In this document: positions 9,954-47,261 of the stretch, piece after piece | How positions within the stretch are numbered: position 1 is the stretch's first letter | Layout: each line of letters opens with the position of its first letter | DNA from: Styela clava | Taxonomy: Eukaryota | Direction: 5' to 3' | DNA length: 64,000 bases | Assembly: GCF_964204865.1 (NCBI RefSeq) | Contig: NC_135261.1 | Coordinates: 18,600,001-18,664,000 of the forward strand | Notes under the pieces: model-generated | What the model was told of the DNA's origin: nothing | The model's input: the letters and a program-made list of their open reading frames with translations, nothing else | The model's database searches: none | Position numbers and translations under genes: made by a program

Positions 9954-12431
9954 ATGAAGATACTGGTTGTTTTGTGTTGTTTCGTAGTTGCAGGTAAGAT
10001 AAAAGTTTTCATAATTACACTATCTGTTTTAAATTTGATAAGCATTATCAAAATTATCGAGACTATAATAATATTCAAATATTCCCATAATTCAAACAAT
10101 CAAAAGCTTATAACCTAAAAACTTCAGTATTAGTGTTTTTTCAATCTTATTGAAACAACAAACAGATAATTAAAGATTTTGAATTTTGTTCATTTCCAGC
10201 CGTGATGGCTGACACCATTTATGCTGCCCCTTGGATATTACAAACGAGTATATTAAATTTCGCACAAGGTTGAATCAACAGAAAATGTTAATGATTATAT
10301 TCTTCTCAGTATCTTCATATGGGGGAGAGAGGAGACAATATTTTCAGTGGGGAAGCGGAAACAAAGGTATTTACTTTTTGTTTAGTTTATCAAGAAAGGT
10401 AAGTCAACATAAAAATTGATGCTTCTACATTAGTGATTTCTATACAAAATTTCTATCTGTTCAAAAACAACAATCATGCTCTTTAAATGAATTGATAACA
10501 CGATAATGACACTGAATATATTTTTCAAAAGATAACTTTGGACCAAAATCATTTGGAGACGGCCTTAGACGTAGAACAAACGGATGGAGAACAAGTAAAC
10601 CAGTTTTGTTTATGCGTAAACGTCTACAAGAAAGAACAAAATTTGCACCAGAAATACCAATACCCTATCGACCAAGTCTGTTTAAACGTTCTCCTCCAGG
10701 CATTATGATCAAAAAACAGGATACACCTGAACCATTGTGGCAGCGAGCTCTAAAAATTCTCTTCAACATAAATAGCAACAAATACCGGCCGAGACCATTT
10801 GGTATTCCGGGGGATGATGATAAAAGTAGACTTGGACAACTTTGGCGCCGAGTGGATGTTGTTAGAAATCGACCCGGGCCATTTGGACGTCGAGGAGATG
10901 GAGGCAGACTAGGGCCTTTTAGGCGACAAGGAGATGACGATGGTTATGAACCTGGACCTTTTCAACGTAGAGAATATGGTGATAGAGGTGGACTTGGACC
11001 TTTCGGGCGTAGAGGAATTGTGAATAGACTGGGACCTTTCGGGCGTGGAGGAGTTGTGAATAGACCTAAACCTTTCGGGCGTAGAGGAGATAATGATGGA
11101 GATAGACCTCGACCTTTTTGGAGCAGAGGTGATAATGGTAAAGATAGACCTAGACCTTTCGGACGTAGAGGAGATTATGTCGGAGATAAACCTAGACCTT
11201 TTTGGAGTAGAGGAGATAATGATGGAAATAGACCTGGGACTTTCTGGAGTAGAAAAATTAGTGACGAAGACAGGCTTGAACCTTTTGGACGACGAGAACA
11301 TGGTGATGGTGATAGACCTAGATCTTTTTGGAGTATAAGAGATAAGGATGGAGATAGACCAGTACCTTTTGGACGTGGAGGAGATAATGGTAGGGATAGA
11401 CCTGGACCTTTCGGACGTCGAGAAGATGGAAATAGGCCAGGGCCTTTTGGACGCCGAAGAGATGGCGATGAAGATAGACCTGGACTTTTTAGGCGTAGAG
11501 GAGATGGTGGTAGAGATAAACCTGAAAAATTCAATTTTGATGATAATTCCAGAAAGTTTAAAGAATGCAATAAACAATGTGAATCATTAGACGAATGTTT
11601 CGGCAAAAAAGACTTTAAAAAAATTATGATGATTGCTCCTAAACCTTGCAAGACATGTGTGATGAAAGAATGTGAATTTAAAACGAGTAAGTGTATATTT
11701 ATTCTATAATTTTCTTTTAGCAAAATGTCCAACTCAGATTTTATAAATAAACGAGGCGAAACATTGATTTTTACCAGATTTGAAATGCTTTTTCTGTTTT
11801 TTCACATGAAGCATATTATTGTTAATTCAATTTTTCGCGATCAAAATCTATTGATCTAAAATTTACTGCTGTTTCATAAAGTCAGATTGTGATAGGTTAT
11901 ATTCATTATATTTTTTTAGATCGTCAATGCTTTGTGGATTCCCATGCAACGTGCAGTGACATCTGCCCGAAAATATCACCTGATAAAGTCAAGGATAAAA
12001 TTTCCTCATGTGCATCATGTATCAATAAATGCGAAGCGGAAGGTATTTTTTTATATTTATTTCTTTTATCACCTGATGTTGCAATTGTCGAAGAAGCTTG
12101 ACCAAAGATGAGAGATTTGAATCTTTTACAGAAATATGAAAGTTTAATCATTCAAGCCATCATAACCAACTAAAACTACTCTAAATATGACATTATTTTA
12201 ATTGGAACAACTTTTTATAAAGATGACAACCAGAAAACTAAGGATGACAGTGAAGGCTACGAAGAAAACGGCACAAATGGAGTCGATGATGACGTGGAAA
12301 GCGAAGATCATGGCGATGCCCACGATGACGGAGCTGAGGCAGACAACGAAGATTGGCCAGAAAAGGAAGATGATAATGATGAGATAACCCCTGAGATGAT
12401 TTTGGCAATATTCAATAAGTTGCTATCCTAA
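9954..12431 (+). CDS. Gene A1: intact secreted RPGPF/RGD-repeat, Cys-rich (vanabin-like), acidic-tail protein, ~527 aa
   Basis: Exons 9954-9993, 10310-10366, 10532-11686, 11920-12042, 12223-12431, all GT-AG and phase 1, join in frame. Signal peptide MKILVVLCCFVVAVSSYG; repeat array; 12 Cys across exons 3-4; Asp/Glu tail; AATAAA at ~12444. Confidence 0.88.
10870..11525 (+). repeat. Coding 42-bp (14-aa) minisatellite in A1 exon 3
   Basis: Repeating AGACCT(G/A)GACCTTT(C/T)(G/T)GG..GTAGAGGAGAT units, translated RPxPF(G/W)(R/S)RGD. Confidence 0.9.
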
Positions 12432-17800: not shown

Positions 17801-18130
17801 TGCTAACAAAATGGCGACGCTATATCATTTCAATAACATTTTTCAAATATATCAGACAAATAAAATTTCAAACCGCTAAATGTACTACTTAGTTTAAATT
17901 TAGCTATTCTTTGTTATTGGTTAGTTTGATAACTCTCGAATATTCAAACACAAAACGAGATAAATAAAGCTGACCTTGATGTAAAAAGAACCATCCTGAC
18001 GTCATCGTGATAACATTTAGGACCAAGTTTTTCAACGTGAACACAAACTAATATAAATTCTACGAAATGTATTGATATAAATGAAAAGAAAAAATACATT
18101 TATTTTGGGCAACAAAACAAGTGTTGATTT
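14830..18130 (+). repeat. Degenerate tandem array (3 units) upstream of gene B1
   Basis: The same markers occur at ~14905, 15945 and 16785; perfect TGACGTCA at ~15801, 16634 and 17997. Confidence 0.85.
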
Positions 18131-18132
18131 AG

Positions 18133-18168
18133 TATAAATTAGGTCACTTGTGCACACTTGTTATCAGT
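18133..18168 (+). promoter_or_regulatory. Core promoter of B1
   Basis: TATAAAT at 18133, TGCACAC at 18151, TCAGT at 18164. Confidence 0.7.
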
Positions 18169-18299
18169 TGATAAACGACAGTGAAAAAGCGATTGTACTC
18201 AATTGTTAAATCGTATTTTTATTGATTTGCTCGGTTGAAAAAAAACTCGTATGTCGACAGCTATTTGTGATAAACTCAAAAATACAATATTCTGAAATA

Positions 18300-21200: not shown

Positions 21201-22007
21201 ATGTGAAGCAGAAAGTAAGTAATTGGTTGTAATATTCTTTTTTCTATTATAATAGAATGAATAACACATTCAACTTATTTGCCGTTTTACAATTTTATAG
21301 CAGGAAATATAATTCTTTTTGCATATTTAATCAAATTGTGAGTTTGAACAGATCTAATTCATTTCTATTTTCAGTTAATAAGAAACAAGAAAACTGTCTA
21401 ACTTTTTTTAAGTAGGCTATTCACGAGGAATACGTAAATTATCAAATTTCTTCACCAGAGTTCAATGTCCATGAAATATATATGTTATTTATAACCCTAA
21501 ATGCAAATGTACCATGTAACCTCTTTCAGAAGTGGTACATATAAAATACATCACCGAAAAATCCAGAACTTGTAGAAATTATAAATTAAGCATAACCAAT
21601 TGAACGTACTTTGGATATTGCGGTTGGCAAAAATTGTTCAGATTCATAACGATAAAATGTTTACTTTGTTTATGCAATCCTGAGCAGACGAACTTACCTA
21701 TGGCAATGACGGAAAAGCATTTGTTTATATAATAAATAGGTATAAAAATATGTAATGATCCCATATTAACAAAATTATTTTGTGCAAAGAGGTCAATGAA
21801 GACGATGATGACATGCCGGAGGATGAAGATACAATCGACGATATCTCAAAAAAGGAAGATCTAGAAGATGATAGCCATGATGGAAATGATGAAACCGCAA
21901 GTGAAATAGAAGTTAGCGATGAAGATGAAGTTGGAAATGATGAGATGACTTCTGATGATATAATGTCAACTACGGGTGGTGATATGGCATCGGATTCTGA
22001 TGAATAA
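18300..22007 (+). pseudogene. Gene B1: paralog with premature stop in exon 3
   Basis: Exons 18300-18339, 18616-18672, 18855-20858, 21092-21214, 21790-22007. In-frame TAA at 19052-19054 where B2 has GAA; the rest of the frame is open. Confidence 0.82.
19180..20645 (+). repeat. Coding 42-bp minisatellite in B1 exon 3
   Basis: Over 30 units of GGAGATGxTGATGGAAATAGACCTGGACCTTTCGGxCGTA(G/T)A; a 5' block of nine units reads GRI instead of GRR. Confidence 0.92.
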
Positions 22008-27154: not shown

Positions 27155-29970
27155 ATGAAGATACTGGTTGTTTTGTGTTGTTTCGTAGTTGCAGGTAAGA
27201 TAAATGTTTCAATAGGTTTTCATAATTAAACTATCAGTTTTAAATTTGATGAGCAATATCAAAAGTATCGCGACTATATAAATATTCAAATATTCCCATA
27301 ATTCAAACAATCAAAAGCTTACAACCTAAAAACTTCAATATTAGTGTCTTTTCAATCGTATTGAAACAACAGATAATTAAAGATTTTGAATTTTGTACAT
27401 GTCCAGCCGTGATGGCTGACAACATTTATGCTGCCCCTTGGATATTACAAACGAGTATATTGAATTTCGCATAAGGTAGAATCAACAGAAAATGTTAATG
27501 ATCATATTCTTCTCAGTATCTTCATATGGGGGAGAGAGGAGACAATATACTCAGTGGGGAAGCGGGAACAAAGGTATTTACTTTTTTGTTTTGTTCATTG
27601 ATAATTCAACATAAAAATTGATGCTTCTACATTAGTGATTTCTATACAAAATTTCTATCTGTTCAAAAACAACAATCATACTCTTTACATGGAATTGATA
27701 ACATGATAATGACACTGAATATATTTTTCAAAAGGTTACTTCGGACCACAATCATTCGGAGACGGCCTTAGACGAGGAACATACGTATTGAGAACAAGTA
27801 AACCAGTTTTGTTTATGCGTAAACGTCTACAAGAAAGAACAAAATCCGCACCAAAAATACCAATACCCTATCGACCAAGTCTGTTTAAACGTTCTCCTCC
27901 AGGCATTATGATAAAAAAACAGGATACACCTGAACCATTGTGGCAGCGAGCTCTAAAAATTCTCTCCAACATAAATAGCAACAAATACCGGCCCAGACTG
28001 GTTTTCCGGGGGATGATGATAAAAGTAGACTTGGACCACTTTGGCGCCGAGTGGATGTTGTTAGAAATCGACCGGGCCCATTCGGACGTCGAGGAGATGG
28101 AGGCAGACTAGGGCCTTTTAGGCGACAAGGAGATGGCGATGGTGTTAAACCTGGACCTTTTCAACGTAGAGAATATGGTGATAGAGATAGACTTGGACCT
28201 TTCGGGCGTAGAGGAGTTGTGAATAGACTTGGACCTTTCGGGCGTGGAGGAGATGGTGATGGAAATAGACCTGGACTTTTCGGGCGTAGAGGAGTTGTGA
28301 ATAGACTTGGACCTTTCGGGCGTGGAGGAGATGATGATGGAAATAGACCTAAACCTTTCGGGCGTAGAGGAGATAATGATGGAGATAGACCTCGACCTTT
28401 TTGGACCAGAGGTGATAATGGTAAAGATAGACCTAGACCTTTCGGACGTAGAGGAGATAATGACGGAGATAAACCTGGTCCTTTTTGGAGTAGAGGTGAT
28501 AATGATGAAGATCGACCTGGACTCTTCGGACGTCGAGGAGATAAGTATAGAAATAGACCTGGACCTTTCTGGCGTAGAGGATATAATGATAGAAATACAC
28601 CTGGACATTTCGAACGTCGAGTAGATAATGATGGAGATACCTCTGGACCTTTCTGGAGTAGAAAAAATATTGACGGAGACAGGCCTGAACGTTTTGGACG
28701 TCGAGGGGATGATGATGGAGGTAGTCCTAAACCTTTTTGGAGTAGAGGAGATAATGATGGAAATGGGCCTGGGACTTTCTGGAGTAGAAAAGATAATGAC
28801 GAAGACAGCCCTGAACCTTTTGGACGTCGAGAACATGGTGATGGTGATAGACCTAGACCTTTTTGGAGTATAAGAGATAAGGATGGAGATAGACCAGTAG
28901 TACCTTTTGGACGTGGAGGAGATAATGATATGGATAAACCTGGACCTTTCGGACGTCGAGAAGATGGAAATAGGCCAGGGCCTTTTAGACGCCGAAGAGA
29001 TGGCGATGAAGATAGACCTGGACCTTTCAGGCGTAGAGGAGATAGTGGTAGAGATAAACCTGAAAAATTCAACTTTGATGATAATTCCACAAAGTTTAAA
29101 GAATGCAATAAAAAATGTGAATCATTAGACGAATGTTTCGGCAAAAAAGACTTCGAAAAAATGATGATGATTGCTCCTAAACCTTGCAAGAAATGTGTGA
29201 TGAAAGAATGTGGATTCAAAATGAGTAAGTGTATATTTATTCTATAATTTTCTATTAGCAAAATGTCCAACTCAGATTTTATAAATAAACGAGGCGAAAC
29301 ATTGATTTTTACCAGATTTGAAATGCTTTTTCTGTTTTTTCACATGAAGCATATTATTGTTAATTCAATTTTTCGCGATCAAAATCTATTGATCTAAAAT
29401 TTACTGCTGTTTCATAAATTCAGATTGTGATAGGTTATATTCATTATCTTTTTTTTAGATCGTCAATGCTTTGTGGATTCCCATGCAACGTGCAGTGACA
29501 TCTGCCCGAAAATATCACCTGATAAAGTCAAGGATAAAATTTCCTCATGTGCATCATGTATCAATAAATGCGAAGCGGAAGGTATTTTTTTATATTTATT
29601 TCTTTTATCACCTGATGTTGCAATTGTCGAAGAAGCTTGACCCAAGATGAGAGATTTGAATCTTTTATAGAAATATGAAAGTTTAATCATTCAAGCCATC
29701 ATAACCAACCAAAACTACTCTAAATATGACATTATTTTAATTGGAACAACTTTTTATAAAGATGACAACCAGAAAACTAAGGATGACAGTGAAGGTTACG
29801 GAGAAATCGACACAAATGGAGTCGATGATGACGTGGAAAGCGAAGATCATGGCGATGCCCACGGTGATGGAGCTGAGGCAGACAACGATGATTGGCCAGA
29901 AAAGGAAGATGATAATGATGGGATAACCCCTGAGATGATTTTGTCGATATTCAATAAGTTGCTATCCTAA
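27155..29970 (+). pseudogene. Gene A2: paralog with frameshift in exon 3
   Basis: Exons 27155-27194, 27517-27573, 27735-29224, 29459-29581, 29762-29970. A 4-nt deletion near 27998 (AGACTGGTTTT vs A1 AGACCATTTGGTATT) shifts the frame to a stop at 28109-28111. Confidence 0.82.
28065..29062 (+). repeat. Coding 42-bp minisatellite in A2 exon 3, longer than in A1
   Basis: Same unit family as A1 with roughly eight additional units. Confidence 0.9.
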
Positions 29971-30695
29971 CTTTTTGTCAACAATTAAAATAAAAAATTA
30001 TATACCCTGGAATATACATTCTGGAATTTCTTTTGCGCCCAATTTGACTTATGTGCCTATTAGAAAATAGCTTATATAAATAAAATTTCGTTATGTTAGA
30101 GGTATTAAAAATGTACTGTTTGATAAATTAAACATTTAAATGTGTGAGTAATAAATTCATCAACTAAATAGAACTGTCGTAATATAATCCGCCTAATTCA
30201 AGGTCGCATGATGAAAATGAAAAGGTTAGAAGAGGGATAGCAGACTCGAAAAAGTTTCAAATAGACGCTTAGTATCAGTTAGATATGTACAAAATGTAGT
30301 TTTAGCAACATGTTTTGAGCCTTCAATTTGAGTTGTTTACGTTGACTGCTCAGAAAAATGTATTTCGCATTTCGTTATGTTTTCCATAGCCTTTTGTTCA
30401 GAGCAACAAATCGCCTTTCTTTTTATTCTCTTACACGAAGTATACGTATACATCGTTTGGGTATTATGACATTGTTGTTGTTAGAATTCTTTTTCTTGTT
30501 GTTCTTATGAAAAAAATGGTTTTCTATTTATTTACTAGACCAACTGCTTTAAAATTCATTTTCATTGCGTAAAAATTGGATTGGTCGTTAGCAGGCAATT
30601 ACCATTTTTTATTTTTTTTAAAAACTTTCTGGAGGCCCTATGGGATCATATCCATAAAATATAAATACGTCTCCAAGCCAATATCTCCTTTGGGG

Positions 30696-30925
30696 GCTCC
30701 CGAAGTATGCAAACCAAGATGGCGGACATCGGAATGTATTATGTGTACTAGGTTAGGGTTAGGCCATAATTTTAGGTATAAATACTACGGGAGGCTCTTG
30801 GCTAGTCTTCGAACTGATAATAGAACTAAAATAAGAGAAATTGAAATAAAATTATCGCCTAACCCTAACCTGTTACCCATGTTACGTTCCGATGTCCGCC
30901 ATCTTGGTTCGCCTACTTCGGGAGC
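30696..30925. mobile_element. Foldback MITE present only in duplication unit 2
   Basis: ~43-bp TIR GCTCCCGAAGTATGCAAACCAAGATGGCGGACATCGGAA / TTCCGATGTCCGCCATCTTGGTTCGCCTACTTCGGGAGC, inner inverted GGTTAGGGTTAGG/CCTAACCCTAACC; absent at the paralogous site ~13148. Confidence 0.85.
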
Positions 30926-31169
30926 GTAGCATTTAAGGACAAATAGTTTGTATTGCCACCTTAGCTGGGCGTGAAAGTTAGCAGGAAAATTTATGCTTAC
31001 CGTATACCCAGTTTTTGATAATCACATCACATAGTACACAGTTTTTTAGATCCTCGAATCAAAATTACGTTATTTTTGTGTTACAACCCTATCTTATGTA
31101 TTTATGTAATTGTGTCCCGATTAAAAGTAGTGTCGAATTATGCAAGATAATCGCTGGATTAGCCTTGTT

Positions 31170-31349
31170 CCGTGGGGAGAATCAGCCCGTATGTACCGGT
31201 TCTATAGAACCGTCTCACGGAATTTTTTGAGATCAGCGAACCGGTTAGCATTGCTGGTGATTGTCAATGACTTTTTGTAACAGAACCGGCTGAAAAAATA
31301 TGACTTTTGTGATAGAACCGGTTGACAAAAGATTTGAATCCCACCACTG
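31170..31349. mobile_element. hAT-type MITE (duplicate of 13403-13582)
   Basis: Near-identical to the unit-1 copy, so it was copied together with its flanks. Confidence 0.6.
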
Positions 31350-32639
31350 GCTTTGCTATACCCTGTAGTCGTGCGTTGAAACTCAATAATAGTGAAAAGA
31401 AGATGCTTTGGGGGAAATGACTAAACTGGTCGTCATAAGGCGGTTAGATCTGCTGCAATTTTTATTTGTTAGAAGTCGTCGCTAAAAAGGATCTAGATGA
31501 TTGGGATTCAAAACTAATTTGTGACTTACAAATAGTATACGCAACGAATATAGAATCGACATTCATATGTAGGTAGCAATCAAAACTGCATTGTCCAACG
31601 GTACTTTGGATCGTCAAATTGACTGTCCCAATCGAATTCCAAGTGTATTTGACGTTACACAGGATGTTTGTCAAATAAATTTCGAAACAAACTCAACATG
31701 CGAGCATGCAATTCCAAAATGTAAGCATTCAACAACTCCTTAAAAAATTAATTTTATGGCAGTCAAGTTGCACGCCTGCTTCGGGAACATATTTTCTAAG
31801 AAGCAAATCACCAAGCAGACCCCCCGAAGGTGTCCGAGTGGCCCGCGCGATCATATTTGAAGCCCGATGTCTTCCACAAATCTGAGCGACTATTGAAACC
31901 TCTTATTTCTCTCGTTCCTTCCTTAGGCAAGTAAACACTGTGTTTAATGTGCTCATATAAAATAGTATTACACTTTTTACATTTGATCTTCAAGGGTTTC
32001 ATACATAGCTGAAACAAGAATATACGGCCTATCGACAACTTTTATTAAGCACTACAGTCTATTTACTATCTAACTACATAAACGTTGTTTCTCCTAAATC
32101 CTAGAGTTTTCACCACTAACAAATAGAGATGAAATCGTTTTTGCAAACATTAAAAATGACAAATTCATGCCAGAGGGACGTGTTTGATAACTGAAGAAAT
32201 GATTCTACTTATTCCTTTGCGCTCAAAGAATTAGACTGAAAATAATTCGACCTACGAATCGTTATGATGTTTTCATGCTCTACTATCTATAAAATATATT
32301 CAATGTTATTATTATTTAGCCTGACGGTTGTGTATTGCACAATATGAACATTTTCCACACATGAGTTAAACAAAAACATATACGAAGTTATATGATGTTT
32401 TCATGACGTGTACTTGCTGATTATATAGATTCTAAAATTTAAGTCAATAAAAATGCGGATTACTTTTCCCACAACTATTCGGCGTGTTTGATTGTGTATG
32501 TGTATATAAAATAGCGCGCGTATTTGCATGTTTCCAGCCTGAATTTTTGCAATCTTTCGCGTGCACACGCTATGATGTTTACGATTGTTTATACTTTAAA
32601 ACGAAAAAATGAAAATCAATTTATCTATATACTACACCC

Positions 32640-35600
32640 AAATCCCATACCAGAAGTGCAAATTGAAGAAAGTCGGCAATTTAATTAATAAGCACCGTGC
32701 TATTTTGGTCCAACCATCACGTGAGTCGATGACGATTTGAACAGATTATGACGTTATAGAAAACGCGGGAGATTTGAATTCGTTTCCAGCATACGGGCGT
32801 ACTATCCGCAGTTTATTTATACCCTATCATGAGAGTGTCGTTTTAAAAACCAAAACAAGGATTCGAATAAATTGAAGCTAAAGATATTTTATTTATAGAT
32901 AGCTCTTTTCAATCAAATATTGTGGGTCTATTTTAGGACATTTTAGCGTGGGTTTTGGTGCAAATTTCTAACTAGCATTTCAACTATATATTTTTGGAGT
33001 GTATTTCTTATTGGTTAATTCAAACTTTCAAATTTCGTTTCGTGTATAATTTATTATGATTTCACACGAGATATCTATAGTGGACTTAATGGCAAGCGAA
33101 TACGACTATTGCTAAAATTAGTATAGTGACAGCGTTGTATTAATTAGTCGAATAAACGAAAGTCAACGCCATACTTATTTTTAAAATATGTTTTAACATT
33201 ACTAAGGTTATCACACACCATTTTCGATCACCTATACTCATTTCATCGATCCGACACCATTGCAGGTCTGCCATAAATTAGACAAACAACAGAATTGTTC
33301 GACTATACTGAGAAACCCCGACATCGTATTCAAGAGGTCATTGGTAACATATAATAAATGTAAACAAAAAGTGCGTGCATGTTATTTTTGTACACTCATT
33401 TACGGTTTTTATTTACGAAACTCTAGCAAACGTTATTGTATAAAGTTTACTAATTGGTTCCTTCAGTATGACTCCTAAACATTGCACGCAATGTTAACAA
33501 AATATTCTTATTGGTTAGTTTGATAACCCTCGAATATTCAATCACGACGAAATAACTTGAACTAATCTTGATTAGCTCGGAGACGCGTTTACAACTAAAT
33601 GGAACCATCTTGACGTCAAATAATATTTTATACCAGGTTTTAAATTTAAACACAATCTTATAGTCTGGGAAACGTATTTTTATAAATGAAAAAAAAAATA
33701 CATAAGTAAGTCGAGAATTTAAATATTGTGCACCGTGATATTTTAGATCAACACCAGTGAGTCGACGATGATATGAACGGATCATGAAGTAAATAAAAAC
33801 ATGGGAGATTTAAATTCGTTTGCAGCATACAGGCGTACGACCCTCAGTTTAATTTTGGCTTTTTATCAGAATTTCATTTTGAAAACCAAAACAAAGAGTC
33901 GAATCAATTAGGCTAAGGCTATTCTATTTATGGATAGTTATTTTCGATCAAATAGGTGGGTCTATTTTAAGACATATTACCGGCGTGTTTTTGTGAATAT
34001 TTCTGACTAGCATTTCAGCTATATATTTTTGGAGTGGTATAGTGACTATACTGAGAAACTCTGACACCGTATTCAGGGGGTCATTGATAAAATATAATAA
34101 TATAATAAAGGTAAACAAAAATGTACGTACATGTTATTTTTGTACACTTTTACGCTTTTCTTTGCGAAACTCTATCAAAAGTTATTTTTAAAAGTTCTCT
34201 GATTGGCTCTTTTGGGATGAGTAATTAACAAAATGGCGGTGCTTTATTTCAACATCTTTTTCTAAATATATCAGACAAACAGGATAAAAATTTCAATCCA
34301 TTAAATTTATTACTTAGTTTACAAAGCTAAATTTAGCCATTATTATTGGTTAGGTTGATAACCTTCGAATATTCAAACACAAAACAAGATAATTTGAGCT
34401 AATCTTGATCAGCTTGGAGATGTGTTTGAATATAGATCCATCTTGACGTCATGGAAATATTTAATATCAAGTTTCGAATGTAAACACAGCATCAAAACAA
34501 GAGTTGATTTACTACACTGGAATTCACTACCGAAACTGCATATTGAAGTAACTCGACAATTTAATTATGATGAACCCTCATATTTCGGTCCAAAATCACA
34601 TGAGTCGATGTCGATATGAGCAGCGGATCATGACGTAAATAAAAGCGCGGAAGATTTAAATTCGTTTGCAGCATACAGGCGTTCTACCCGTAGTTTAATT
34701 ATAGTTTATATCATAGTATAGTTTAAAAATCAAAACAAGAATGCGAAGTAATTAAAGTTATTCTATTCATAGATAGTTGTTTATAATCAAATGTGCTGTC
34801 TTATTTAAGACATATTAGTGGCGTATTAGTATCGGTGAATTTCTGTAGCTAGGATTTTAATGATCTAATTTTGGATTGATGTTTCCTATTGGTGAAATCA
34901 AACTTTAAATTTTTTTCCCTTGTATAGGATCGCTATAAAAGATATCAACGTTGTATTCATGAGTAAAATATTTATTTTAAAATAAAATGTATCATTACTA
35001 AGATTATCACACACCATTTTTAATAAGTATATCTGGTTATATATCATATGTACTGCAAATCATATTTACAGTCATGTATATTTCACCATCGTGATCGCAA
35101 AAAATGTGATTCGGATTTTTATATATGCATGCAAATTTAATTGTGACCACCAGGCCATGTAAAATGAACAAAACAAAAATGAATTACTAAGTACAAATGA
35201 AGCCAGGGTAAACACAAGTGAAATTTTGGATAAAATATCACCTTCGACGACCAAAAAACTATAAAAGCAATAGCAGTGTAGCGGCCTTTCCCATCTTCAA
35301 GAACGGGAAACCTGAAGTAATTAGGTAGACAAGAAAACGATTAATTTCACATAAAAGGTGACAAAAAATTTGATATTCATATTGGCTTCAAAAAACTGGG
35401 TGGACACTCATTTAAATTTATTGACCCGACACCATTGCCTTAAATCAGACAAACAACAGAATTTGTTCGACGCTATTGAGAAACCCTGACATTGTATTCA
35501 AAAAACATTCGTAAGATATAATAAAGTAAACAAAAAGTGCGTACATGCTATTTTGGTACACTCTGACGCTTTTCTTTACGAAACTCTAGCTAAAGTTATT

Positions 35601-35960
35601 TTAAAAAGTTTTCTCATTAGCTCTTTCATTATGACAATGCTCACAAAATGGCGACGCTATATCATTTCAATAACATTTTTCAAATATATCAGACAAATAA
35701 AATTTTAAACCGCTAAATGTACTACTTAGTTTAAATTTAGCTATTCTTTGTTATTGGTTAGTTTGATAACTCTCGAATATTCAAACACAAAACGAGATAA
35801 TTAAAGCTGACCTTGATGTAAATAGAACCATCCTGACGTCATCGTGATAACATTTAAGTTTTTCAACGTGAACACAAACTAATATAAATTCTACGAAATG
35901 TATTGATATAAATGAAAAAAAAAAATACATTTATTTTGGGCAACAAAACAAGTGTTGATT
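32640..35960 (+). repeat. Degenerate tandem array (3 units) upstream of gene B2
   Basis: Near-identical to 14830-18130; markers at ~32717, 33755 and 34597. Confidence 0.85.
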
Positions 35961-35963
35961 TAG

Positions 35964-35999
35964 TATAAATTAGGTCACTTGTGCACACTTGTCATCAGT
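35964..35999 (+). promoter_or_regulatory. Core promoter of B2
   Basis: TATAAAT at 35964, TGCACAC at 35982, TCAGT at 35995. Confidence 0.7.
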
Positions 36000-36129
36000 T
36001 GATAAACGACAGTGAAAAAGCGATTACTCAATTGTTAAATCGTATTTTTATTGATTTGCTCGGTTGAAAAAAAAAGTCGTTTGTCGACAGCTATTTGTGA
36101 TAAACTCAAAAATACAATATTCTGAAATA

Positions 36130-39100
36130 ATGAAGATACTGGCTGCTTTGTGCTGTTTCGTGGTCGTAGGTAAGATAAATTTTTAAATAAGTTATCATAT
36201 TGTTTTAAATATAATAAGCAAAATTCAAATTCAATAATTCAAAGAATCAAAAGCTCATTACTTAAAAAGTTTAGTATTAGTGTCATGCCTTTCCAATTTT
36301 AAAAAAAGAATCCTATTGAAAATGCAGTTGATTAAGGATTTTGAGTTTTGTACATGGCTAGTTCCAACAAGTATAATAGAAAACTTTAATATTTATCTTC
36401 TTCTCAGTATCTTCATATGGTGGAGAGAGGAGACAATATACTCAATTGGGAATAGGAAACAGAGGTATTTACTTTTGTGTTTTATTTGTCAAAAATAGTA
36501 ACGAAAGAAAAGGAATTCAACATAATAATTAATGCTTCTTTATCAGCGATTTCTGTAACCAAATTTCTATTTGTTCAAAAACAACAATCATATTCTTGAC
36601 GTGGAATTGATTACATGATAATGACGCTAAATATATTTGTTCAAAAGGTAACGTTGGACCAAAATCATTTGGATACGGCCTTAGACGAGAAGCATACGGA
36701 TGGAGAACAAGTAAACCAGTTTTGTTCATGCGTAAACGTCTACAAGAAAAAGCAAGATCCGCACCGAAAATACCAATCCCCTATCGACCAAATCTGTTTA
36801 AACGTTCTCCCCCAGGCATTATGATCAAAAAACAGGATAAACCAGAACCACTATGGCAGCGAGCTGTAAAAATTCTTTTCGGCATAAATAGCAACAAATA
36901 CCGGCCGAGACCATTTGGTATTCCGGGGAATGATGACAAAAGTAGACTTGGACCATTTTGGCGCCGAGTAGATGTTGATAGAAAACCCGGGCCATTTGGA
37001 CGTCGTGGAGGTGATGGCAGACTAGGGCCTTTTAGGCGACCAGGAGATGGCGATGGTGATAGACCTGGACCTCTTCGACGTAGAGAATATGGTGATAGAG
37101 ATAGACCTGGATCTTTCTGGCGTAGAGGAGATGGTGATAAAAATGGACCTGGACCTTCCGGGCGTAGAAGAGATGATGATGGAAATAGACCTGGACCTTT
37201 CGGTGGTAGGAGAGATGGTGATGGAAATAGACCTAAACCTTTCGGGCGTATAGGAGATGGTGATAGAAATAGACCTGGACCTTTCGGGCGTATAGGAGAT
37301 GGTGATGGAAATAGACCTGGACCTTTCGGGCGTATAGGAGATGGTGATAGAAATAGACCCCGACCTTTCGGTGATGGAAATAGACCTGGACCTTTCGGAC
37401 GTAGAGGAGATGGCGATGGAAATAGACCTGGACCTTTCGGTCGTAGAAGAGATGATGATAGAAATAGACCTGGACCTTTCGGGCGTAGAGGAGATGATGA
37501 TGGAAATAGACCTGGACCTTTCGGTCGTAGAGGAGATGGCGATGGAAATAGACCTGGACCTTTCGGTCGTAGAGGAGATGATGATGGAAATAGACCTGGA
37601 CCTTTCGGACGTAGAGGAGATGATGATGGAGATAGACCTGGACCTTTCGGTCGTAGAGGAGATGGCGATGGAAATAGACCTGAACCTTTCGGTCGTAGAG
37701 GAGATGGTGATGGAAATAGACCTGGACCTTTCGGTCGTAGAGGAGATGATGATGGAGATAGACCTGGACTTTTTGGGCGTAGAGGAGATAGTGATGAAAA
37801 TAGACCTGGACCTTTCGGTCGTAGAGGAGATGATGATGGAGATAGACCTGGACTTTTTGGGCGTAGAGGAGATGATGATAGAAATAGACCTGGACCTTTC
37901 GGACGTAGAGGAGATGATGATGGAGATAGACCTGGACCTTTCGGTCGTAGAGGAGATGGCGATGGAAATAGACCTGGACCTTTCGGTCGTAGAGGAGATG
38001 ATGATGGAAATAGACCTGGACCTTTCGGACGTAGAGGAGATGATGATGGAGATAGACCTGGACCTTTCGGTCGTAGAGGAGATGGCGATGGAAATAGACC
38101 TGGACCTTTCGGTCGTAGAGGAGATGGTGATGGAAATAGACCTGGACCTTTCGGTCGTAGAGGAGATGATGATGGAGATAGACCTGGACTTTTTGGGCGT
38201 AGAGGAGATGGTGATGAAAATAGACCTGGACCTTTCGGTCGTAGAGGAGATGATGATGGAGATAGACCTGGACTTTTTGGGCGTAGAGGAGATGGTGATG
38301 GAAATAGACCTGGACCTTTCGGTCGTAGAGGAAATGGTGATGGAAATAGACCTGGACCTTTTGGACGTAGAGAAGATGGTGCTAGACCTGGATCTTTTGG
38401 ACGTAGTGGAGATGGTGATGGAGGTAGACCTGGACCTTTTGGACGTAGTGAAGATGGTGATGGAGATAGAACTGGATCTTTTGGACGTAGAAGAAGTGGT
38501 GACAGAGATAGACCTGATATTTCCGGGCGTAGAGGATATGGTGATAGATATAGACCTGGACCTTTTAGGCCCAGAGGAGATGATGATGGAAAGAACTTTG
38601 GAAACATTATGATGAGAATTCTGAAAGTGATACATAAAACCTTCGGAAAAAAAGAAAATGATATAGAAACAAATAACAAAAAATGCAAAAAGCAATGTGA
38701 AGCAAAGGAAAAATGCTTTGGAAGAAAAGATTTTGAAAAAATGATGATGCTGTCGACCAAACATTGCAAAGCATGCATGATGAAAGAATGCCAATTTAAT
38801 ATGGGTATATATAATTTTTTATCACAAACTTGAATATTTTTATTTTTCAATACTATGCTAGAACTTCTTTTACTTTAAAGTCAAACTTAAATAATAAGTT
38901 AGAGAATACTTGTTTATTGAATATAAAACTCACCAGTAAGTTTCAAATAATCGGTTCCAATTTCGGTATGAATTCCGTAATGTTGTGTATTCCAAACAAA
39001 ATGTTAACAACGTTAATGTTCTATTTTTTCATATGTTCCAGATCGTAAATGTTTCATGGATGCTCACAAGAAATGTGACAACATTTGCCCAGTATTATCA

Positions 39101-39957
39101 CAAGAGAAAGTCGAGAATAAAACGTCATCTTGTAAAACATGCATTGAAAAATGTGAAGCAGAAAGTAAGTAATTGGTTGTAATATTCTTTTTTCTATCAT
39201 AATAGAATGAATAACACATTCAACTTATTTGCCGTTTTACAATTTTATAGCAGGAAATATAATTCTTTTTGCATATTTAATCAAATTGTGAGTTTGAACA
39301 GATCTAATTCATTTCTATTTTCAGTTAATAAGAAACAAGAAAACTGTCCAACTTTTTTTAAGTAGGCTATTCACGAGGAATACGTAAATCATCAAATTTC
39401 TTCACCAGAGTTCAATGTCCATGAAATATATATGTTATTTATAACCCTAAATGCAAATGTCCCATGTGATCTCTTCCAGAAGTGGTACATATAAAATACA
39501 TCACCGAAAAATCCCGAACTGGTGGAAATTATAAATTAAGCATAACCAATTTAACGTACTTTGGATATTGCGGTTGGCAAAAATTGTTCAGATTCATAAC
39601 GATAAAATATTTACTTTGTTTATGCAATCCTGAGCAGACGAACTTACCTATGACAATGACGGAAAAGCATTTGTTTATATAATGAATAGGTATAAAAATA
39701 TGTAATGATCCCATAGTAACAAAATTATTTTGTGCAAAGAGGTCGATGAAGACGATGATGACATGCCGGAGGATGAAAATACAATCGACGATATCTTAGA
39801 AAAGGAAGATCTAGAAGATGATAGCCATGATGGAAATGATGAAACCGCAAGTGAAATAGAAGTTAGCGATGAAGATGAAGTTGGAAATGATGAGATGACT
39901 TCTGATGATATAATGTCAACTACGGGTGGTGATATGGCATCGGATTCTGATGAATAA
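36130..39957 (+). CDS. Gene B2: intact secreted RPGPF/RGD-repeat, Cys-rich (vanabin-like), acidic-tail protein, ~864 aa
   Basis: Exons 36130-36169, 36408-36464, 36648-38804, 39042-39164, 39740-39957, all GT-AG and phase 1, in frame. Signal MKILAALCCFVVVVSSYG; ~23 RGD motifs by hand count; 12 Cys; acidic C-terminus; AATAAA at ~40079. Confidence 0.88.
36975..38590 (+). repeat. Coding 42-bp minisatellite in B2 exon 3 with internal 420-bp higher-order duplication
   Basis: About 38 units; 37501-37880 is almost identical to 37921-38300. Confidence 0.92.
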
Positions 39958-41285
39958 TAATTCCGATTCAGCGACGAACGTTTTCTCTCTGGAACAGTTT
40001 TAAAATATTCAAATATATCTGAAATTGTTGTGTAAAATACTTAAAAATGTTGGAGCATTAATGTGTTGCTAATATGCTAATAAAACCGTATAACAGAATA
40101 CAAAAGTGGAATGGTTTACTTACATATGTGTCCCTATTGAAACATAACGCGTTCACATGAGAATGATTGTCTAATTCTCATAGATTAATTTGGAGTCTTT
40201 GTGCTGTTGCCACAATTAAATAAAACAATTCCGCACCATGGAATATGTACTACAAATCATTTTTTCGTCAGGTAACTTAGACAAAAAGCGACTGATCTGT
40301 TGTAAGATTTGTCTTTTAAATCGACTCATGACCAAAGTCGTAGCCTGACCAAAATTTGGGATGGGGGCTAGTGATGTGACTTTTAATTTTAAGTAAAAGC
40401 TACATATGTTCTAGGATATCACCTCCTGAAAAATGAAGCGGCACAGTTAGTTTCGTAGTCAGGCTTATTCAACAACTATAAACCTACAAACATGAAGTCA
40501 TTGCTGAGCGCAATTACGTCTTGACCCGTTGCATGCTTGAACAACGGGTCGCTTATCCGGTCAAAAACACTTACGGTAAATCGTAACACAAAGAAGACGA
40601 ATATATAAATTGGTCGTTGGAGCTTGCGTACCTTAAATATTTAAAAAGCATTTAACCTCTGATTTATGCTATAAAGGGGTGAGGCCGCTAGATCATGCAG
40701 TGGTTTTAATATGGCCGCACAGTTCTTGACAAAGCGGTGGTAGTAACATACTAGACCAAGAAAAGATCGAAGTTTATTTGAAAAAGGAAACTTGTTGATT
40801 GTTTCAAACTTTGAAGTCAGTGAATAGATACCCTTCGATGTAACGTGATGGCCTAAAAAATCGATCTCTTTTTTCCCGAACTCACATTTATAAACATTCA
40901 AGACAAGTTCGTATTTTCGAAAGCGTAAGGAATGTTGTCTTAGTGCTTGCCGATGTTGTTCCTCAGTTTCGGTTGCACATAATATATCATCGAGGAATAC
41001 AAATATATTCTATAAACCAGAAGTTACTTCCGACAGAAAACGAGAAAATGATGAACAGGCATTGCACAGACCGAATCGTAAAATTACTGATTCAAACCTC
41101 CTTCAGGACAGATGAAAGCAGCTTTCTTCCTATTAGATTGATGAAGAGATATTTGATGATATGCTCTTAAAAGGTCACATTTGCTGAAATAGTGGCAATC
41201 ATGTAATTCATTGGTAAAATCGCGCATGTGAGGAATTGGCCATCTGTCTTTTATTGTCTGATTGTTAAGGGAAATATAGTCGACT

Positions 41286-42136
41286 TTAACGATTTTGAAA
41301 AATTTACCTCATTGCGTTGTATTTAAAGTATTTTGTTAGAAAACTGATAGAGGTTTTTCTAATTTTTTTATGTGATTGGTAAGGAAATGAATCCAGCTAT
41401 TCATACCCAAAATATTTTTTGAGCCCCAAAAACGAATCTTTCTCAAATTTTGTGTCAATTTGGGAAAATTTACGTTATCGCGTTCTGTTGGATGTATTTT
41501 GTTGGAAAACTGATCGAGTTTTTTTCCAATTTTTTTTATCTGATCAAAAAGATGGTGAAACCAGCTATCCGTGCCTATAATATTTTTTGAGCCCCAAAGA
41601 CGGATATTTTTCAAATTTTGGGTCAATTTAACGATTTTGGAAAATTTACGTTATTGCGCTGTATCAAAAATATTTTGTTACAAAACTGATCGAGTTTTTT
41701 TCCAATTTTTTTACATGATTGGAAAGAAAATGAATCCAGCTATCTATGACTAAAATATATTTTGAGCCCCAAAGACCGATCTTCTTCAAATTTTAGGTCA
41801 ATTTAACGATTTTGGAAAATTGACGTTATTGCGTTGTATTTGAAGTATTTTGTTCGAAAACTGTTTGAGTTTTTTTCCAATTTTCTTTTTTGATTGAAAA
41901 GGAAATTCATCCAGGTATTCATACCCAAAATATTTTATGAGCCCCAACGACGAATCTTCTTAAATTTTGAGTCAATTTAACGATTTTGTAAAATTTACGT
42001 TATTGCGTTGTATTTAAAAGTATTTTGTTAGAAAACTGATCGAGTTTTTTTTCCAAATTCTTTACATGATTGGAAAGGAAAGGAATCCAACTATCCATAC
42101 CCAAAATATTTTTTGAGCCCCAATGACCGATCTTCT
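41286..42136. repeat. ~175-bp tandem repeat, ~5 copies, inserted in Gypsy pol
   Basis: Unit TTTAACGATTTTGGAAAATTTACGTTATTGCG...GAAAACTGATCGAG...TTTTGAGCCCCAA recurs at ~41286, 41458, 41627, 41802 and 41976. Confidence 0.9.
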
Positions 42137-43916: not shown

Positions 43917-43996
43917 TATAATCAGTGTAACTATTACTACATTTTCCAAATGATAATTTTGCTCAGATCAAGAGGCTTACAAATCCTAAGAACAGA

Positions 43997-46900
43997 ATGG
44001 GAAAATTATCAGTGTTTGGAATTACATTGGAAGGGAACAGAACAGTATATTTCCCGGGCGATTTCATCAAAGGACAAGTATTGATTCTAGTAACTGAGCC
44101 AATGAAGATGAAAGGTAAGGAGTGGTGGTCTTGCGGTCTTATAAAAATAATAAATCTTATAAATATTTTAGGTACCGTGCTTTGATTGCAGTGAAAAACG
44201 TGGATAAACGTCATATGAATTCATTCATTAATATGTGTTGTATATGTAACATCGTGTTAGAGTTTGGCCAACTCGTGCTCGAATATTGACATATTAAACA
44301 TAAAAATGTTTCCATTAAAAACAGTTTTACTCCTATTAAATTTGACATTGTGTAGTTTACTTATCAGTAAATCTGAGATTAGGCTAGATTGTTTTTATTA
44401 TTTCGAGAGTCAATTCGGTAGCAACGAAAATAAATGATCGTTATTAATAATAATTATACAATATCTTGGCTGCAGTGAGTTGCGCGACTCGTATCATATC
44501 CTCCTCCTGAATATTTTCCGGTTTTGTGTGTAGATTGTCATTGTTTGAAAATATCGAAAGTTACTGGAACTCACTGACACAAGAGAAAATGATTAATTAA
44601 AAGGTTCTCACTATACCATGATTTGTTTATAGCGTTCACAACGCATTGGGTATTAATTAGAAATTGTACCACTTTATGTCAATATCGAACTATCCAAAAC
44701 GAATCGATGGACATAACTAGGCTATTTTATAACGTTATTTGTCCTGCCTGTGCCCCGAGGTGTACATACATTGACTAATCTTTCTTAATCCTACTTACTG
44801 CTCAGCTATTAAAATCATGTGCGTCGGCAGAGCATACGTTCATTGGACTGAAACACACACAACAGGATCAGGCGAAAATCAACGAACCGAAACTGAAAAT
44901 TATTCTGAAACTGAGAACCTATTCGAACAGACTATCATCGTACACGGAGAAGGTAGGTAAAAACTGCAACAAACAGTGGTATAATTGAGCTTTATAATTT
45001 ACCCTAATAAGAAACTTTGTGCGCAAATACTTATATGTGCAAATGTTGTTATAGCCCAAACTTGAAATAAATATGATTTGCCAATGAAATTTATAGCAGT
45101 ATTTTGCATTTCTATTTACGCAGGCGCCAATGAACAGACTAATCTTTCACAAGGACAGCACGTGTTTCCCTTTCAGTATCAATTGCCGACACCACTTCCG
45201 TCGTCTTACGAAGGTAAGGACACAAATTTTCAATATCGGAGCTAAATGTGATCATTCATTTTCTGTAGGTAATTATAAATAAATAATGTTTAACAGGATA
45301 AATGTCCAAGTTACGAGCAATTTCAAGTAAATGGGATTGGGTGGAAGGTATTCGCATCTAAACTTTGGAAATACTACGGCGAACAGTGAATTCTTTACCC
45401 TCCTTCTTTTTTAGAATTCTTCCATCTATAAGTGCTGAAAATTTGGAATAGATTGGTCCATTAGTTGCAGAGAAGAGCAGTTTCCTCGTCAAACAGTTTT
45501 AAGCAACCGTACACCTAAATTATCAATTTTTTTCTTTGTTCCAGTTGCGTTTTATTTGCAATAAAAATTGCTATTAAAATTTTTATCTACAACGTAAATT
45601 ACCCGAGTTTACCCATTTTTTAGACGGCATTGGATACATTAGATACTGGGTGAAAGGAACAATTGTAAAACCATGGAAATTCGATAAATATACAACGCAA
45701 GTGTTTACTGTTCTTGATACATTGGATCTGAACAACATTCCAAATATATCTGTAAGTTTGATTTAAAGGAACAAGCATAAATAATAGCAGACAGGCGAAA
45801 GATCACGGGTATTGACTATGAAATTTGAAATATATTATTTCTAGGGAACGACGAAAAAATCACCCGTCTTCAAGTTCAGAAAATGCTCATTTTTAGTTCG
45901 TTAACATGTTCATCTTTAAATATTACAATCGTGAGTGGTGGCAATGGCAAATAAATGAAAAATCTCTGCCCCATATTGGTAAGGTGCTAAAAGTTAGGGT
46001 GCGGTAATTATTTTTGTCAACCGAAAAAAAGGAAATTTTCACATCCTTTACTCTCCTCTCTTTCTCATTCGAACAATTCATCATCTCCACACTTTTAAAT
46101 CACAGACTCCTTCTGGAAATTCAGACACAAAGACTCTTTGCTGCTGGTGTTGTACCAGTGGACCGATCGAGGCAGAATTTCACACTGACAGATCTGGTTA
46201 CGTTCCAGGGGAATATATTTTGATCAATGCTGCCATCACTAATTCTAGGTACTAAATCGTTTAATTAGCTATCAAAATGTATTCTACTATTCTATTTTAC
46301 TACTACTACTTAGTGTTAGTTTGGTTCACATCTTCTGCCTGTGATATAAATGATGTTTCTGCCAATGTACATATTTTTTTGATTCAGTTACAGCAAAGTT
46401 AAATACACGTCCGCAATGTTAATGCAAAATGTGACGTATCACGCAACAACCAAGACAAGGATTGATTCCCGAGTTGTCAACACAATAATGGGGCCTGGAG
46501 TTGATAAACGTGCGACTGAAAACTGGACTAACAAAAGACTTCATATTCCCCCTCTACCCCCATCTGAATCACTACACTGCAGAATTATTGACATAACTTA
46601 TTCTGTGATTGTGAGTATTCTAAAATGAAATCGTTTTCACGATAGGAAGCACTGACTCAATATTATATTTAAAATTTAATTTTGCACAGTCGCTATTATA
46701 CAGCAATAAACAAAAAAATATATTGAAACAATTTTCTACTCTTGAATCAGCAGAAATGCGAATGCTTATATTATTGTTCTTATTTTCAGTTCCAGGCTCA
46801 CCTAAGAACATGTGCCGTAGACATGCGTTTATACGCGCCAATCACAATAGGAACTATTCCTATTCGCAGTTTACAAATGTATAGGAACCCGCCCCCGTCA

Positions 46901-47261
46901 ATTGGTAACCAACGACTTGCCGTTGCACCAAGCGCTCCTCCAACCCACAATTTTCCACCCAACACCTCGCCAAATCCAGAGCAAGCAACAAGCGCTTATC
47001 CTACGCGGGGAACTTTTTATTGTAAGTTTAATTTTGTACTTTCATTTGACTCCGTAAAATAATTTACGTTACCTTAAGAATAATTCTATTCATATTACAC
47101 CTTGTTTGATTACAGCGCCCCCTCCCTCGTACCCGTCAGCAACCGGGGGTGGAGCAATAATAAAAGATGACGATTATGGATATACAATGGGAGACACATC
47201 TTTCACGCCTCAGTATACTTACTACGATTGGAATCAATCGACTTTCACTTCCAATAAATAA
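43997..47261 (+). CDS. Alpha-arrestin (arrestin domain-containing protein, ARRDC-like), 8 exons
   Basis: Exons 43997-44114, 44806-44952, 45124-45213, 45624-45751, 46106-46248, 46388-46610, 46790-47021, 47116-47261. Motifs [67 protein letters not shown] and a C-terminal PPSY (PPxY). Confidence 0.92.

What the first reader, a model, noticed from the sequence alone, without database searches (positions are those of the whole stretch)
38670..39164. 12-Cys Lys-rich domain with vanabin/turgencin-like spacing
Seen: CKKQCEAKEKC-x16-CKACMMKEC-x7-C-x7-CDNIC-x14-CKTCIEKC; all 12 Cys are kept in A and B although intervening residues diverge; 6 Cys lie in exon 3 and 6 in exon 4. Known: ascidian vanabins are built from C-x(2-5)-C helical repeats rich in Lys (normally 18 Cys, some with acidic tails, tandemly clustered), and turgencin antimicrobial peptides have a 6-Cys Cx3C..C..Cx2Cx3C pattern. 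Inference: a shortened vanabin-like helical-hairpin domain fused to a repeat array, possibly binding metal.
Basis: partly seen in the sequence, partly recalled or inferred. Interest (0 to 1): 0.75.

Follow-up and report, generated by a model that had tools for sequence, protein, structure and literature searches.

The report
Sea-squirt repeat polyprotein with cysteine hairpins
A sea squirt carries seven neighbouring copies (some broken) of a spliced gene whose long, repetitive, likely secreted protein ends in a conserved 12-cysteine domain; the domain resembles vanadium-binding vanabins only in cysteine layout, and the protein is more likely a precursor cut into defence peptides than a vanadium carrier.

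Summary
The 12-Cys block (6 Cys in exon 3, 6 in exon 4) ends a five-exon Styela clava gene of 864 aa: signal-like start, basic region, about 37 repeats of 14 aa, Cys domain, acidic tail. Six of six comparable tandem copies keep the spacing exactly, with dN/dS at most 0.18 between types A and B; a seventh is decayed. RNA-like contigs of one study skip all four introns.

The vanabin reading is only partly supported. Each half is predicted helical, and the spacing matches the last 12 Cys of a true Pfam Vanabin-2 protein elsewhere in this genome (6 of 11 gaps, p=0.006). But it has 12 Cys, not 18, no Pfam match and no significant similarity beyond the cysteines. Fold searches were inconclusive.

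Best reading (0.4): a secreted precursor cut at paired basic residues into amidated repeat peptides, a clavanin-like helix and a two-hairpin domain, for host defence. Rivals: matrix or adhesive protein, metal binder, hormone precursor.

The scan noted similar hairpin proteins in two other genomes, but not this sequence.

The parts
36130..36169 (+). Exon 1 of copy c4 (type B): hydrophobic signal-peptide-like start
   Evidence: Model; conserved in 5 copies; signal peptide judged by eye, no predictor run
36408..36464 (+). Exon 2: end of the signal region and first RR site
   Evidence: introns 1 and 2 are skipped in contigs of X2 and X4 laid on the paralogue c3
36648..38804 (+). Exon 3: basic N-terminal region with dibasic sites, repeat array, amphipathic helix, first 6 Cys
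37042..38592 (+). 42-bp tandem array, 37.4 copies, coding 14-aa Gly/Asp/Arg/Pro/Phe units; 25 of 38 counted units end F-G-R-R; 23 RGD motifs
38594..38653 (+). Cationic amphipathic 17-aa helix followed by G-K-K (candidate amidation and cleavage signal); type B copies only
   Evidence: Highest hydrophobic moment in the protein, 0.73; kept in c2, c4, u2 and the decayed copy
38684..38791 (+). First half of the 12-Cys domain, gaps 3,5,16,2,4; predicted three helices
38805..39041 (+). Intron 3, 237 nt, phase 1, GT..AG, between the two halves
   Evidence: skipped in X1 and X2 contigs with 83 letters on the short side
39042..39164 (+). Exon 4: second half of the 12-Cys domain, gaps 7,3,14,2,3; first whole codon at 39044
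39740..39957 (+). Exon 5: acidic tail of about 72 aa, net charge -32, and stop
   Evidence: the 575-nt intron 4 is skipped in X1 and X2 (29-30 letters on the short side) and in X4 (72 letters, on c2)
9954..12431 (+). Paralogue c1 (type A), open model of about 527 aa
18300..22007 (+). Paralogue c2 (type B), premature TAA at 19052-19054 in this assembly
27155..29970 (+). Paralogue c3 (type A), frameshifted near 27998 in this assembly
   Evidence: related contigs of X2 and X4 carry 4 more bases there

Best explanation
The 12-cysteine block is the last domain before the acidic tail of a spliced Styela clava gene present in seven tandem copies, whose product is likely secreted and likely cut at paired basic residues into short repeat peptides and a predicted two-hairpin, disulfide-stapled domain, most likely for host defence rather than vanadium handling. 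Shown: gene structure, splicing, copy number, purifying selection on the Cys domain, and the positions of dibasic sites. Predicted: helices in each half. Inferred: (1) entry into the secretory pathway, where the Cys oxidise; (2) each half closes on itself as a 1-6, 2-5, 3-4 ladder, as in turgencins; (3) a convertase cuts at RR/KR/KK, releasing up to about 25 amidated Pro/Arg/Phe peptides from this copy, a clavanin-like amphipathic helix in type B, and a piece of about 160-170 aa holding the Cys domain and acidic tail; (4) the acidic tail masks the cationic parts until release, as anionic proregions do in ascidian antimicrobial precursors.
For: All four introns are skipped in RNA-like contigs. 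In 6 of 6 copies a dibasic site lies 10 (type B, G-K-K) or 22-23 (type A, R-R) residues before the first Cys. Four dibasic sites in the non-repeat N-terminal part are shared by c1-c4. 73 of 151 counted units end in F-G plus a dibasic pair, and 91 of 151 in F-G plus at least one basic residue. The type B helix ends H-x-x-F-G; this genome's clavanin ends H-V-F-G before an acidic tail. Ciona antimicrobial precursors run signal, cationic amphipathic region, anionic region (PMC7387483, passages). The first half's spacing 3,5,16,2,4 resembles turgencin A 3,4,8,2,3 and B 3,4,7,2,3 (counted by hand from PMC7024374 section 2.2). Tandem duplication with variable repeat number and broken copies is typical of defence gene clusters (general knowledge).
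Against: No peptide, tissue or activity data. 26 of 151 units have F-W, which cannot be amidated, and 61 of 151 lack a dibasic pair at that place; units spread by local expansion, so the counts are not independent. The units are nearly neutral (Asp offsets Arg), unlike typical cationic antimicrobials. PMC7387483 says styelins and clavanins are cut before Asp and that Ciona candidates lack basic processing motifs. The helix with G-K-K is absent next to the domain in type A. One N-terminal RR site is missing in copy u2. Turgencin's two shared motifs are absent. The models are weak (pLDDT 69 and 72, pTM 0.39 and 0.41) and the disulfides were not measured. All runs showing splicing come from one study and their RNA status is the tool's guess.
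Confidence: 0.4

Rival explanations
1. An uncut extracellular matrix, tunic or adhesive protein: the charge-alternating, disordered repeat forms a condensed phase or binds integrins through RGD, and the 12-Cys domain anchors or cross-links it.
For: The repeat region is about 27% Gly, 21% Arg, 17% Asp, 12% Pro and 7% Phe, with 6-23 RGD motifs per copy. Variants with F-W or a single Arg keep this composition while losing the amidation or dibasic signal. The final R-G-D is about as common as the G-R-R.
Against: The density of dibasic sites would invite cutting in a secretory cell. RGD is a by-product of R-R-G-D and is lost in 12 G-R-I units. No Tyr-rich adhesive signature is seen in the models.
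Confidence: 0.3
2. A shortened vanabin relative that binds or reduces metal ions through Lys/Arg side chains and reversible disulfides, helped by the acidic tail.
For: 6 of 11 gaps are identical to the last 12 Cys of the genome's own PF11437 protein, best of 19 windows, p=0.006 against shuffled gap order. Cys core plus acidic tail is the layout of VanabinX and two Ciona vanabins (PMC9486056). VanabinX has only 16 Cys, so the count can vary.
Against: No PF11437 match. Pairwise scores against the C17 block are not above Cys-fixed shuffles (p 0.19-0.51 in 6 of 6). Cys-anchored flanks give p 0.03-0.04 in 2 of 6 and 0.11-0.20 in 4 of 6. A profile of the six domains scores the block below most shuffles (384 of 500 score as high); hhalign probability is under 10%. 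Intron positions differ. Stolidobranchs hold less vanadium than phlebobranchs (PMC10572860, passage; placing Styela there is recalled).
Confidence: 0.15
3. A hormone or neuropeptide precursor releasing many copies of an amidated peptide ending R-P-G-P-F, with the Cys domain as a carrier, as neurophysin is for vasopressin.
For: Signal-like start, 25 of 38 units ending F-G-R-R in this copy, Gln right after the first RR (a possible pyroglutamate). Ciona haemocytes release an amidated 14-mer, CiEMa (PMC10888236, passages).
Against: The core varies widely among copies, which a receptor ligand would resist. Seven young copies, some broken, are unlike the usual single neuropeptide gene (general knowledge).
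Confidence: 0.15

Closest known systems
Vanabins (Vanabin1-4, P, X of Ascidia sydneiensis samea; CiVanabins; Pfam PF11437; PDB 1VFI)
   Same: Ascidian, Lys-rich helical domain with Cys in C-x(2-5)-C groups; acidic tail as in VanabinX; spacing like the last 12 Cys of the genome's own PF11437 protein.
   Different: 12 Cys instead of 18 or 16; longer loops; no Pfam match; no significant residue similarity; fused behind a repeat array of 230-600 aa; host not known as vanadium-rich.
S. clava 30-Cys protein on C17 (RefSeq LOC120332556 and LOC144431330, P0004 and P0003)
   Same: Same genome, five exons, signal-like start, terminal 12-Cys block with 6 of 11 identical gaps.
   Different: It passes the PF11437 cut-off (35.5 bits), has three further 6-Cys modules and no repeat array or long acidic tail; introns lie elsewhere; no significant alignment.
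Turgencins A and B (Synoicum turgens, PMC7024374)
   Same: Six non-adjacent Cys per unit, starting C-x3-C and ending C-x2-C-x3/4-C; Lys- and Met-rich; helix-loop-helix.
   Different: Turgencins are free amidated 35-36-mers with 7-8-residue loops and the motifs CXMAC and KKXGG; here two units with 14-16-residue loops are linked within a large protein and lack both motifs.
Clavanin, styelin and Ci-MAM antimicrobial precursors
   Same: Order signal, cationic amphipathic helix, anionic C-terminal region.
   Different: They are short, Cys-free in the mature part and cut before Asp; no Pfam match here.
Multi-copy and repeat-variable defence precursors: apidaecin, penaeidin, sea-urchin SpTransformer (recalled, not tested)
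   Same: Repeated Pro/Arg units between RR sites; a Pro/Arg region joined to a Cys domain; tandem genes with variable Gly-rich, RGD-bearing repeats.
   Different: Analogy only; other phyla, and no search here returned them.

Membership tests
Vanabin (PF11437) | Match to the Vanabin-2 profile | tested here: not met
   No match at E<=10 for either exon or in the genome-wide search, which found the C17 and C112 exons at 26-27 bits. The spliced domain itself could not be scanned against Pfam; an indirect profile test against P0004 was negative.
Vanabin (PF11437) | 18 conserved Cys (16 in VanabinX) | tested here: not met
   12 Cys in 6 of 6 copies; definition from PMC9486056.
Vanabin (PF11437) | Cys in short C-x(2-5)-C groups in a Lys-rich domain | tested here: met
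   Gaps 3,5 / 2,4 / 7,3 / 2,3; 18-22 Lys+Arg in 86 aa; spacing match to the C17 block.
Vanabin (PF11437) | Bow-shaped helical fold with nine disulfides (1VFI) | tested here: inconclusive
   Halves folded separately at low confidence; fold searches gave no clear match. Twelve Cys allow at most six disulfides.
Vanabin (PF11437) | V(IV) binding or V(V) reduction | not testable with these tools
   Needs recombinant protein.
Vanabin (PF11437) | Acidic C-terminal tail (VanabinX and two Ciona vanabins only) | tested here: met
   Tail net charge -32 (c4) and -23 (c1); PMC9486056.
Turgencin | Six non-adjacent Cys with spacing near 3,4,7-8,2,3 | tested here: inconclusive
   Half 1 is 3,5,16,2,4 and half 2 is 7,3,14,2,3: 2 of 5 gaps identical in each, loops about twice as long.
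Turgencin | Motifs CXMAC and KKXGG | tested here: not met
   Absent from all six domains printed; motifs from PMC7024374.
Turgencin | Free, amidated 35-36-residue peptide | tested here: not met
   Neither half is followed by Gly plus a basic signal; the halves are joined by 7 residues and followed by the acidic tail.
Turgencin | Disulfides 1-6, 2-5, 3-4 | not testable with these tools
Ascidian linear cationic helical antimicrobial precursor (clavanin, styelin, Ci-MAM type) | Signal, cationic amphipathic helix, anionic region, in a short precursor | tested here: not met
   The order is present in type B, but the protein has 864 aa, holds a Cys domain and matches neither Pfam family.

The most novel reading that the evidence does not exclude
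An undescribed tunicate defence polyprotein that packs dozens of amidated peptides, a membrane-active helix and a truncated vanabin-derived double hairpin into one precursor. Together with a Pfam-positive vanabin relative in the same vanadium-poor species, it would show that vanabins and turgencins are offshoots of one general tunicate family of disulfide-stapled hairpins, with vanadium handling a late specialisation.
Probability: 0.2. Interest if true: 0.62.

Novelty: new variant of a known kind. Interest (0 to 1): 0.36.

Why it matters
The origin and ordinary job of vanabins are open questions, and a 2022 paper states that they are known only from vanadium-rich ascidians (PMC9486056). A vanabin-like Cys layout in a repeat polyprotein of Styela, beside a true PF11437 protein in the same genome, gives a testable route to ask whether the fold began in defence or the extracellular matrix. 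The gene also offers concrete candidate peptides for peptidomics. If the likeness is convergent, it remains a real but lineage-restricted secreted gene family of modest interest.

Tried and rejected
Wrong frame: (protein 2), and one search used window 39045-39164, one base off. Their results, including the C8 hit, were discarded and redone.

Homologue searches found nothing: 0 candidates among proteins of 394-1257 aa; 0 of 33 candidates scored for the exon-4 alignment; 0 of 1.84 billion representatives for the exon-3 alignment; 0 of 593 pattern matches in metagenome contigs. The collection does hold S. clava RefSeq proteins, so the blank may mean the genes are unannotated, left out, or missed by short queries; I cannot tell which. 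It is no proof of novelty.

PDB sequence searches were blank. The Pfam-positive P0004 also fails to find Vanabin2 this way, so the test is insensitive. Foldseek gave 0 matches for both halves. VIA-align best Z was 4.5 (rmsd 2.2, 42 aligned) and 3.4 (rmsd 2.1, 36 aligned), to unrelated helical proteins; 1VFI is not listed, which excludes nothing. The protein atlas gave no answer, and no complex of the two halves was computed.

The halves are not detectably a duplication of each other (p 0.35-0.62; hhalign 2%). The C14 hit (E 0.28, a stop inside) and the weak Fer4_4 matches were rejected as chance. A possible small exon near 39325 was not used by any listed joint.

No listed holder is on record as RNA. 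X3 showed no joint, X11 no cover of the exons, and X5 (another organism label) one 163-base piece at the tail; none of this is evidence on expression or distribution. The u2 row used a wrong exon-3 start and was ignored beyond exon 2.

Paper searches listed no description of this family (listings only). The library lacks most subscription papers, including the Vanabin2 structure paper and the Ciona vanabin gene paper, and no supplements were read.

Full report
Setting. The window lies on contig C16 of a 376.8-Mb animal genome. The genome holds clavanin (120 bits) and styelin (42 bits) genes. A gene on C17 is 98% identical to RefSeq proteins that the source names Styela clava. The host is therefore this solitary ascidian.

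Observation. Four related genes lie head to tail in the window. Each has five exons with phase-1 GT..AG introns. The copy in question, c4 (36130-39957), gives an open 864-aa model: a hydrophobic start, a basic region, 37.4 copies of a 42-bp unit, a 12-Cys block and an acidic tail. Searches of the genome with each Cys exon found seven copies, all within about 85 kb of C16. All 79 listed matches to the repeat lie in the same cluster. Six copies keep all 12 Cys with identical gaps; the seventh is decayed. They form two types in the order A-B-A-B-A-B. The last two pairs are 93-95% identical over several kb; an uncollapsed haplotype was not excluded. In this assembly c2 has a premature stop and c3 a frameshift.

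The domain is under selection. Between types, dN is 0.23-0.27 while dS is 1.6-3.9 or saturated (dN/dS 0.06-0.18 in 8 of 9 pairs), and 8 of 12 Cys codons vary silently. Within types dN/dS is 0.28-0.70 on few changes. The family is transcribed and spliced as modelled. Contigs of X1 and X2 skip intron 3 (83 letters on the short side) and intron 4 (29-30 letters), while X6 contigs read through both. X4 bridges intron 4 with 72 letters, and X2 and X4 skip introns 1 and 2 on the c3 coordinates. These runs are guessed RNA from one study, and contigs cannot always be assigned to one copy.

Is it a vanabin? PMC9486056 (read: parts 1-4 of 5) defines vanabins by 18 Cys and nine disulfides; VanabinX has 16 Cys and an acidic tail and does not bind V(IV) in its mature form. 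The PF11437 profile finds 4 of 4 candidates above cut-off in this genome, all on C17 and C112, none on C16. Neither exon matches at E<=10. The C17 gene encodes a 30-Cys protein (RefSeq form P0004) that scores 35.5 bits over profile positions 1-79. Its last 12 Cys have gaps 3,5,4,2,3,6,4,3,31,2,3. Six of 11 equal ours, in the best of 19 windows, and 601 of 100,000 shuffles of gap order do as well. This null ignores that helical geometry itself favours gaps of 2 to 4, so it overstates the case. Residues other than Cys give little: local scores p 0.19-0.51 against Cys-fixed shuffles, anchored flanks p 0.03-0.20, a profile score below most shuffles, hhalign under 10%. Intron positions differ. From memory, and unchecked because the paper is not held, the first twelve Cys of Vanabin2 form one nested ladder; a protein lacking six of them could not keep that pairing. 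So the layout is vanabin-like, membership fails, and homology is open.

Is it turgencin-like? From the sequences printed in PMC7024374 (read: section 2.2 and passages) the gaps are 3,4,8,2,3 and 3,4,7,2,3, with a 1-6, 2-5, 3-4 ladder. Each half here shares 2 of 5 gaps, has a loop about twice as long, lacks both turgencin motifs and is not set up for release as a free amidated peptide. AlphaFold2 on each half gives three helices, with the Cys on or beside the first and last (pLDDT 69 and 72; pTM 0.39 and 0.41). This fits self-closing hairpins but does not show them. Fold searches gave no clear match. The St-CRP peptides have adjacent Cys and another pairing (PMC13208793, passages) and do not apply.

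What the rest of the protein says. The repeat region is Gly, Arg, Asp, Pro and Phe with little net charge. Of 151 counted units in six copies (a few from the N-terminal region), 73 end in F-G plus a dibasic pair, 26 have F-W, and each copy has 6-23 RGD motifs. Four dibasic sites are shared in the non-repeat N-terminal part of c1-c4, and in 6 of 6 copies one lies 10-23 residues before the first Cys. Cutting there would free a piece of about 160-170 aa with the Cys domain and the acidic tail, close to the layout of VanabinX. Type B copies carry just upstream a strongly amphipathic cationic helix ending in F-G-K-K. This recalls the genome's clavanin, which ends in F-G before an acidic tail, and the order described for Ciona precursors (PMC7387483, passages). 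That paper also says ascidian precursors are cut before acidic residues, not at basic pairs, which counts against my reading.

Mechanism. I judge a processed, secreted defence polyprotein most likely (0.4). An uncut matrix or adhesive protein is close behind (0.3); a metal-binding vanabin relative (0.15) and a hormone precursor (0.15) follow. Only the gene, its splicing, its copies and the selection on the domain are shown. Secretion, cutting, disulfide pairing and function are inferred. Vanadium handling is weakened by the lower vanadium content of stolidobranchs (PMC10572860 and PMC8303170, passages; the placement of Styela is recalled). Ciona vanabins respond to an immune peptide (PMC10888236, passages) and one marks a neural region (PMC11273300, passages), so a vanabin-like domain need not concern vanadium storage. 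Passages of PMC13079984 and bioRxiv 2025.05.20.655184 added nothing.

Novelty. No Pfam family, homologue or paper was found (paper listings 30, 70, 83, 84, 109), but these blanks are weak for the reasons given under Tried and rejected. The scan has no note on this place or sequence. It noted two similar cases of hairpin-type Cys proteins in other genomes, both judged to resemble vanabins or turgencins in layout only; I did not test them. The finding is a real, apparently undescribed, lineage-restricted variant of the ascidian Cys-hairpin theme in a new domain context.

Noticed in passing
G000:C17:10365.7-10367.7 kb and 10371.8-10373.8 kb; C112:325-9081 (L009-L012): Tandem genes for a 268-269-aa, 30-Cys protein with a signal-like start that passes the Vanabin-2 cut-off (35.5 bits). 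RefSeq calls it uncharacterised. This is at odds with the statement in PMC9486056 that vanabins are known only from vanadium-rich ascidians. One isoform lacks a 6-Cys exon.
   Followed up: partly
window 10929-22146 against 28452-40094: Recent duplication of an A-B gene pair, about 17.8 kb apart, 93-95% identical; an older pair lies just upstream. A haplotype artefact was not excluded.
   Followed up: partly
window 19052-19054 and about 27998: c2 has a premature TAA and c3 a frameshift in this assembly; related contigs in X2 and X4 carry 4 more bases at the c3 site.
   Followed up: partly
L014:6717-8933 (C16:18586.7-18588.9 kb): Upstream copy u1 has a different, longer N-terminal region with its own amphipathic stretch and many Trp-containing repeat units; its first exon was not located.
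   Followed up: no
L017:5091-6119, minus strand: Decayed seventh copy next to a transposase-like ORF (L017:2077-3855).
   Followed up: partly
L015:2687-5984, minus strand: Exons that look like C-type-lectin domains (judged by eye, not scanned) between the cluster and the decayed copy.
   Followed up: no
window 43931-47062, + strand: Arrestin-domain gene downstream of the cluster: Arrestin_C E 5e-12, Arrestin_N weak.
   Followed up: partly
window 54376-54687 (+) and 49604-49912 (-): Exons that look like a glutathione transferase omega-type reductase (recalled motifs; no Pfam hit for the exon scanned).
   Followed up: no
window 41285-42136: 175-bp tandem repeat, about 5 copies, preceded by a short reverse-transcriptase-like remnant at 40641-41009.
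   Followed up: no
L014:3-776 and L015:7901-10000; L016:2919-3617; L018: A LINE-like element with long endonuclease and reverse-transcriptase frames, a gag-like frame and other transposon remnants flank the cluster (judged by eye).
   Followed up: no
window 39325-39366: An AG followed by a short open stretch with one Cys and a stop in intron 4 of type B copies; low-depth contigs touch intron 4, but no listed joint uses it.
   Followed up: partly
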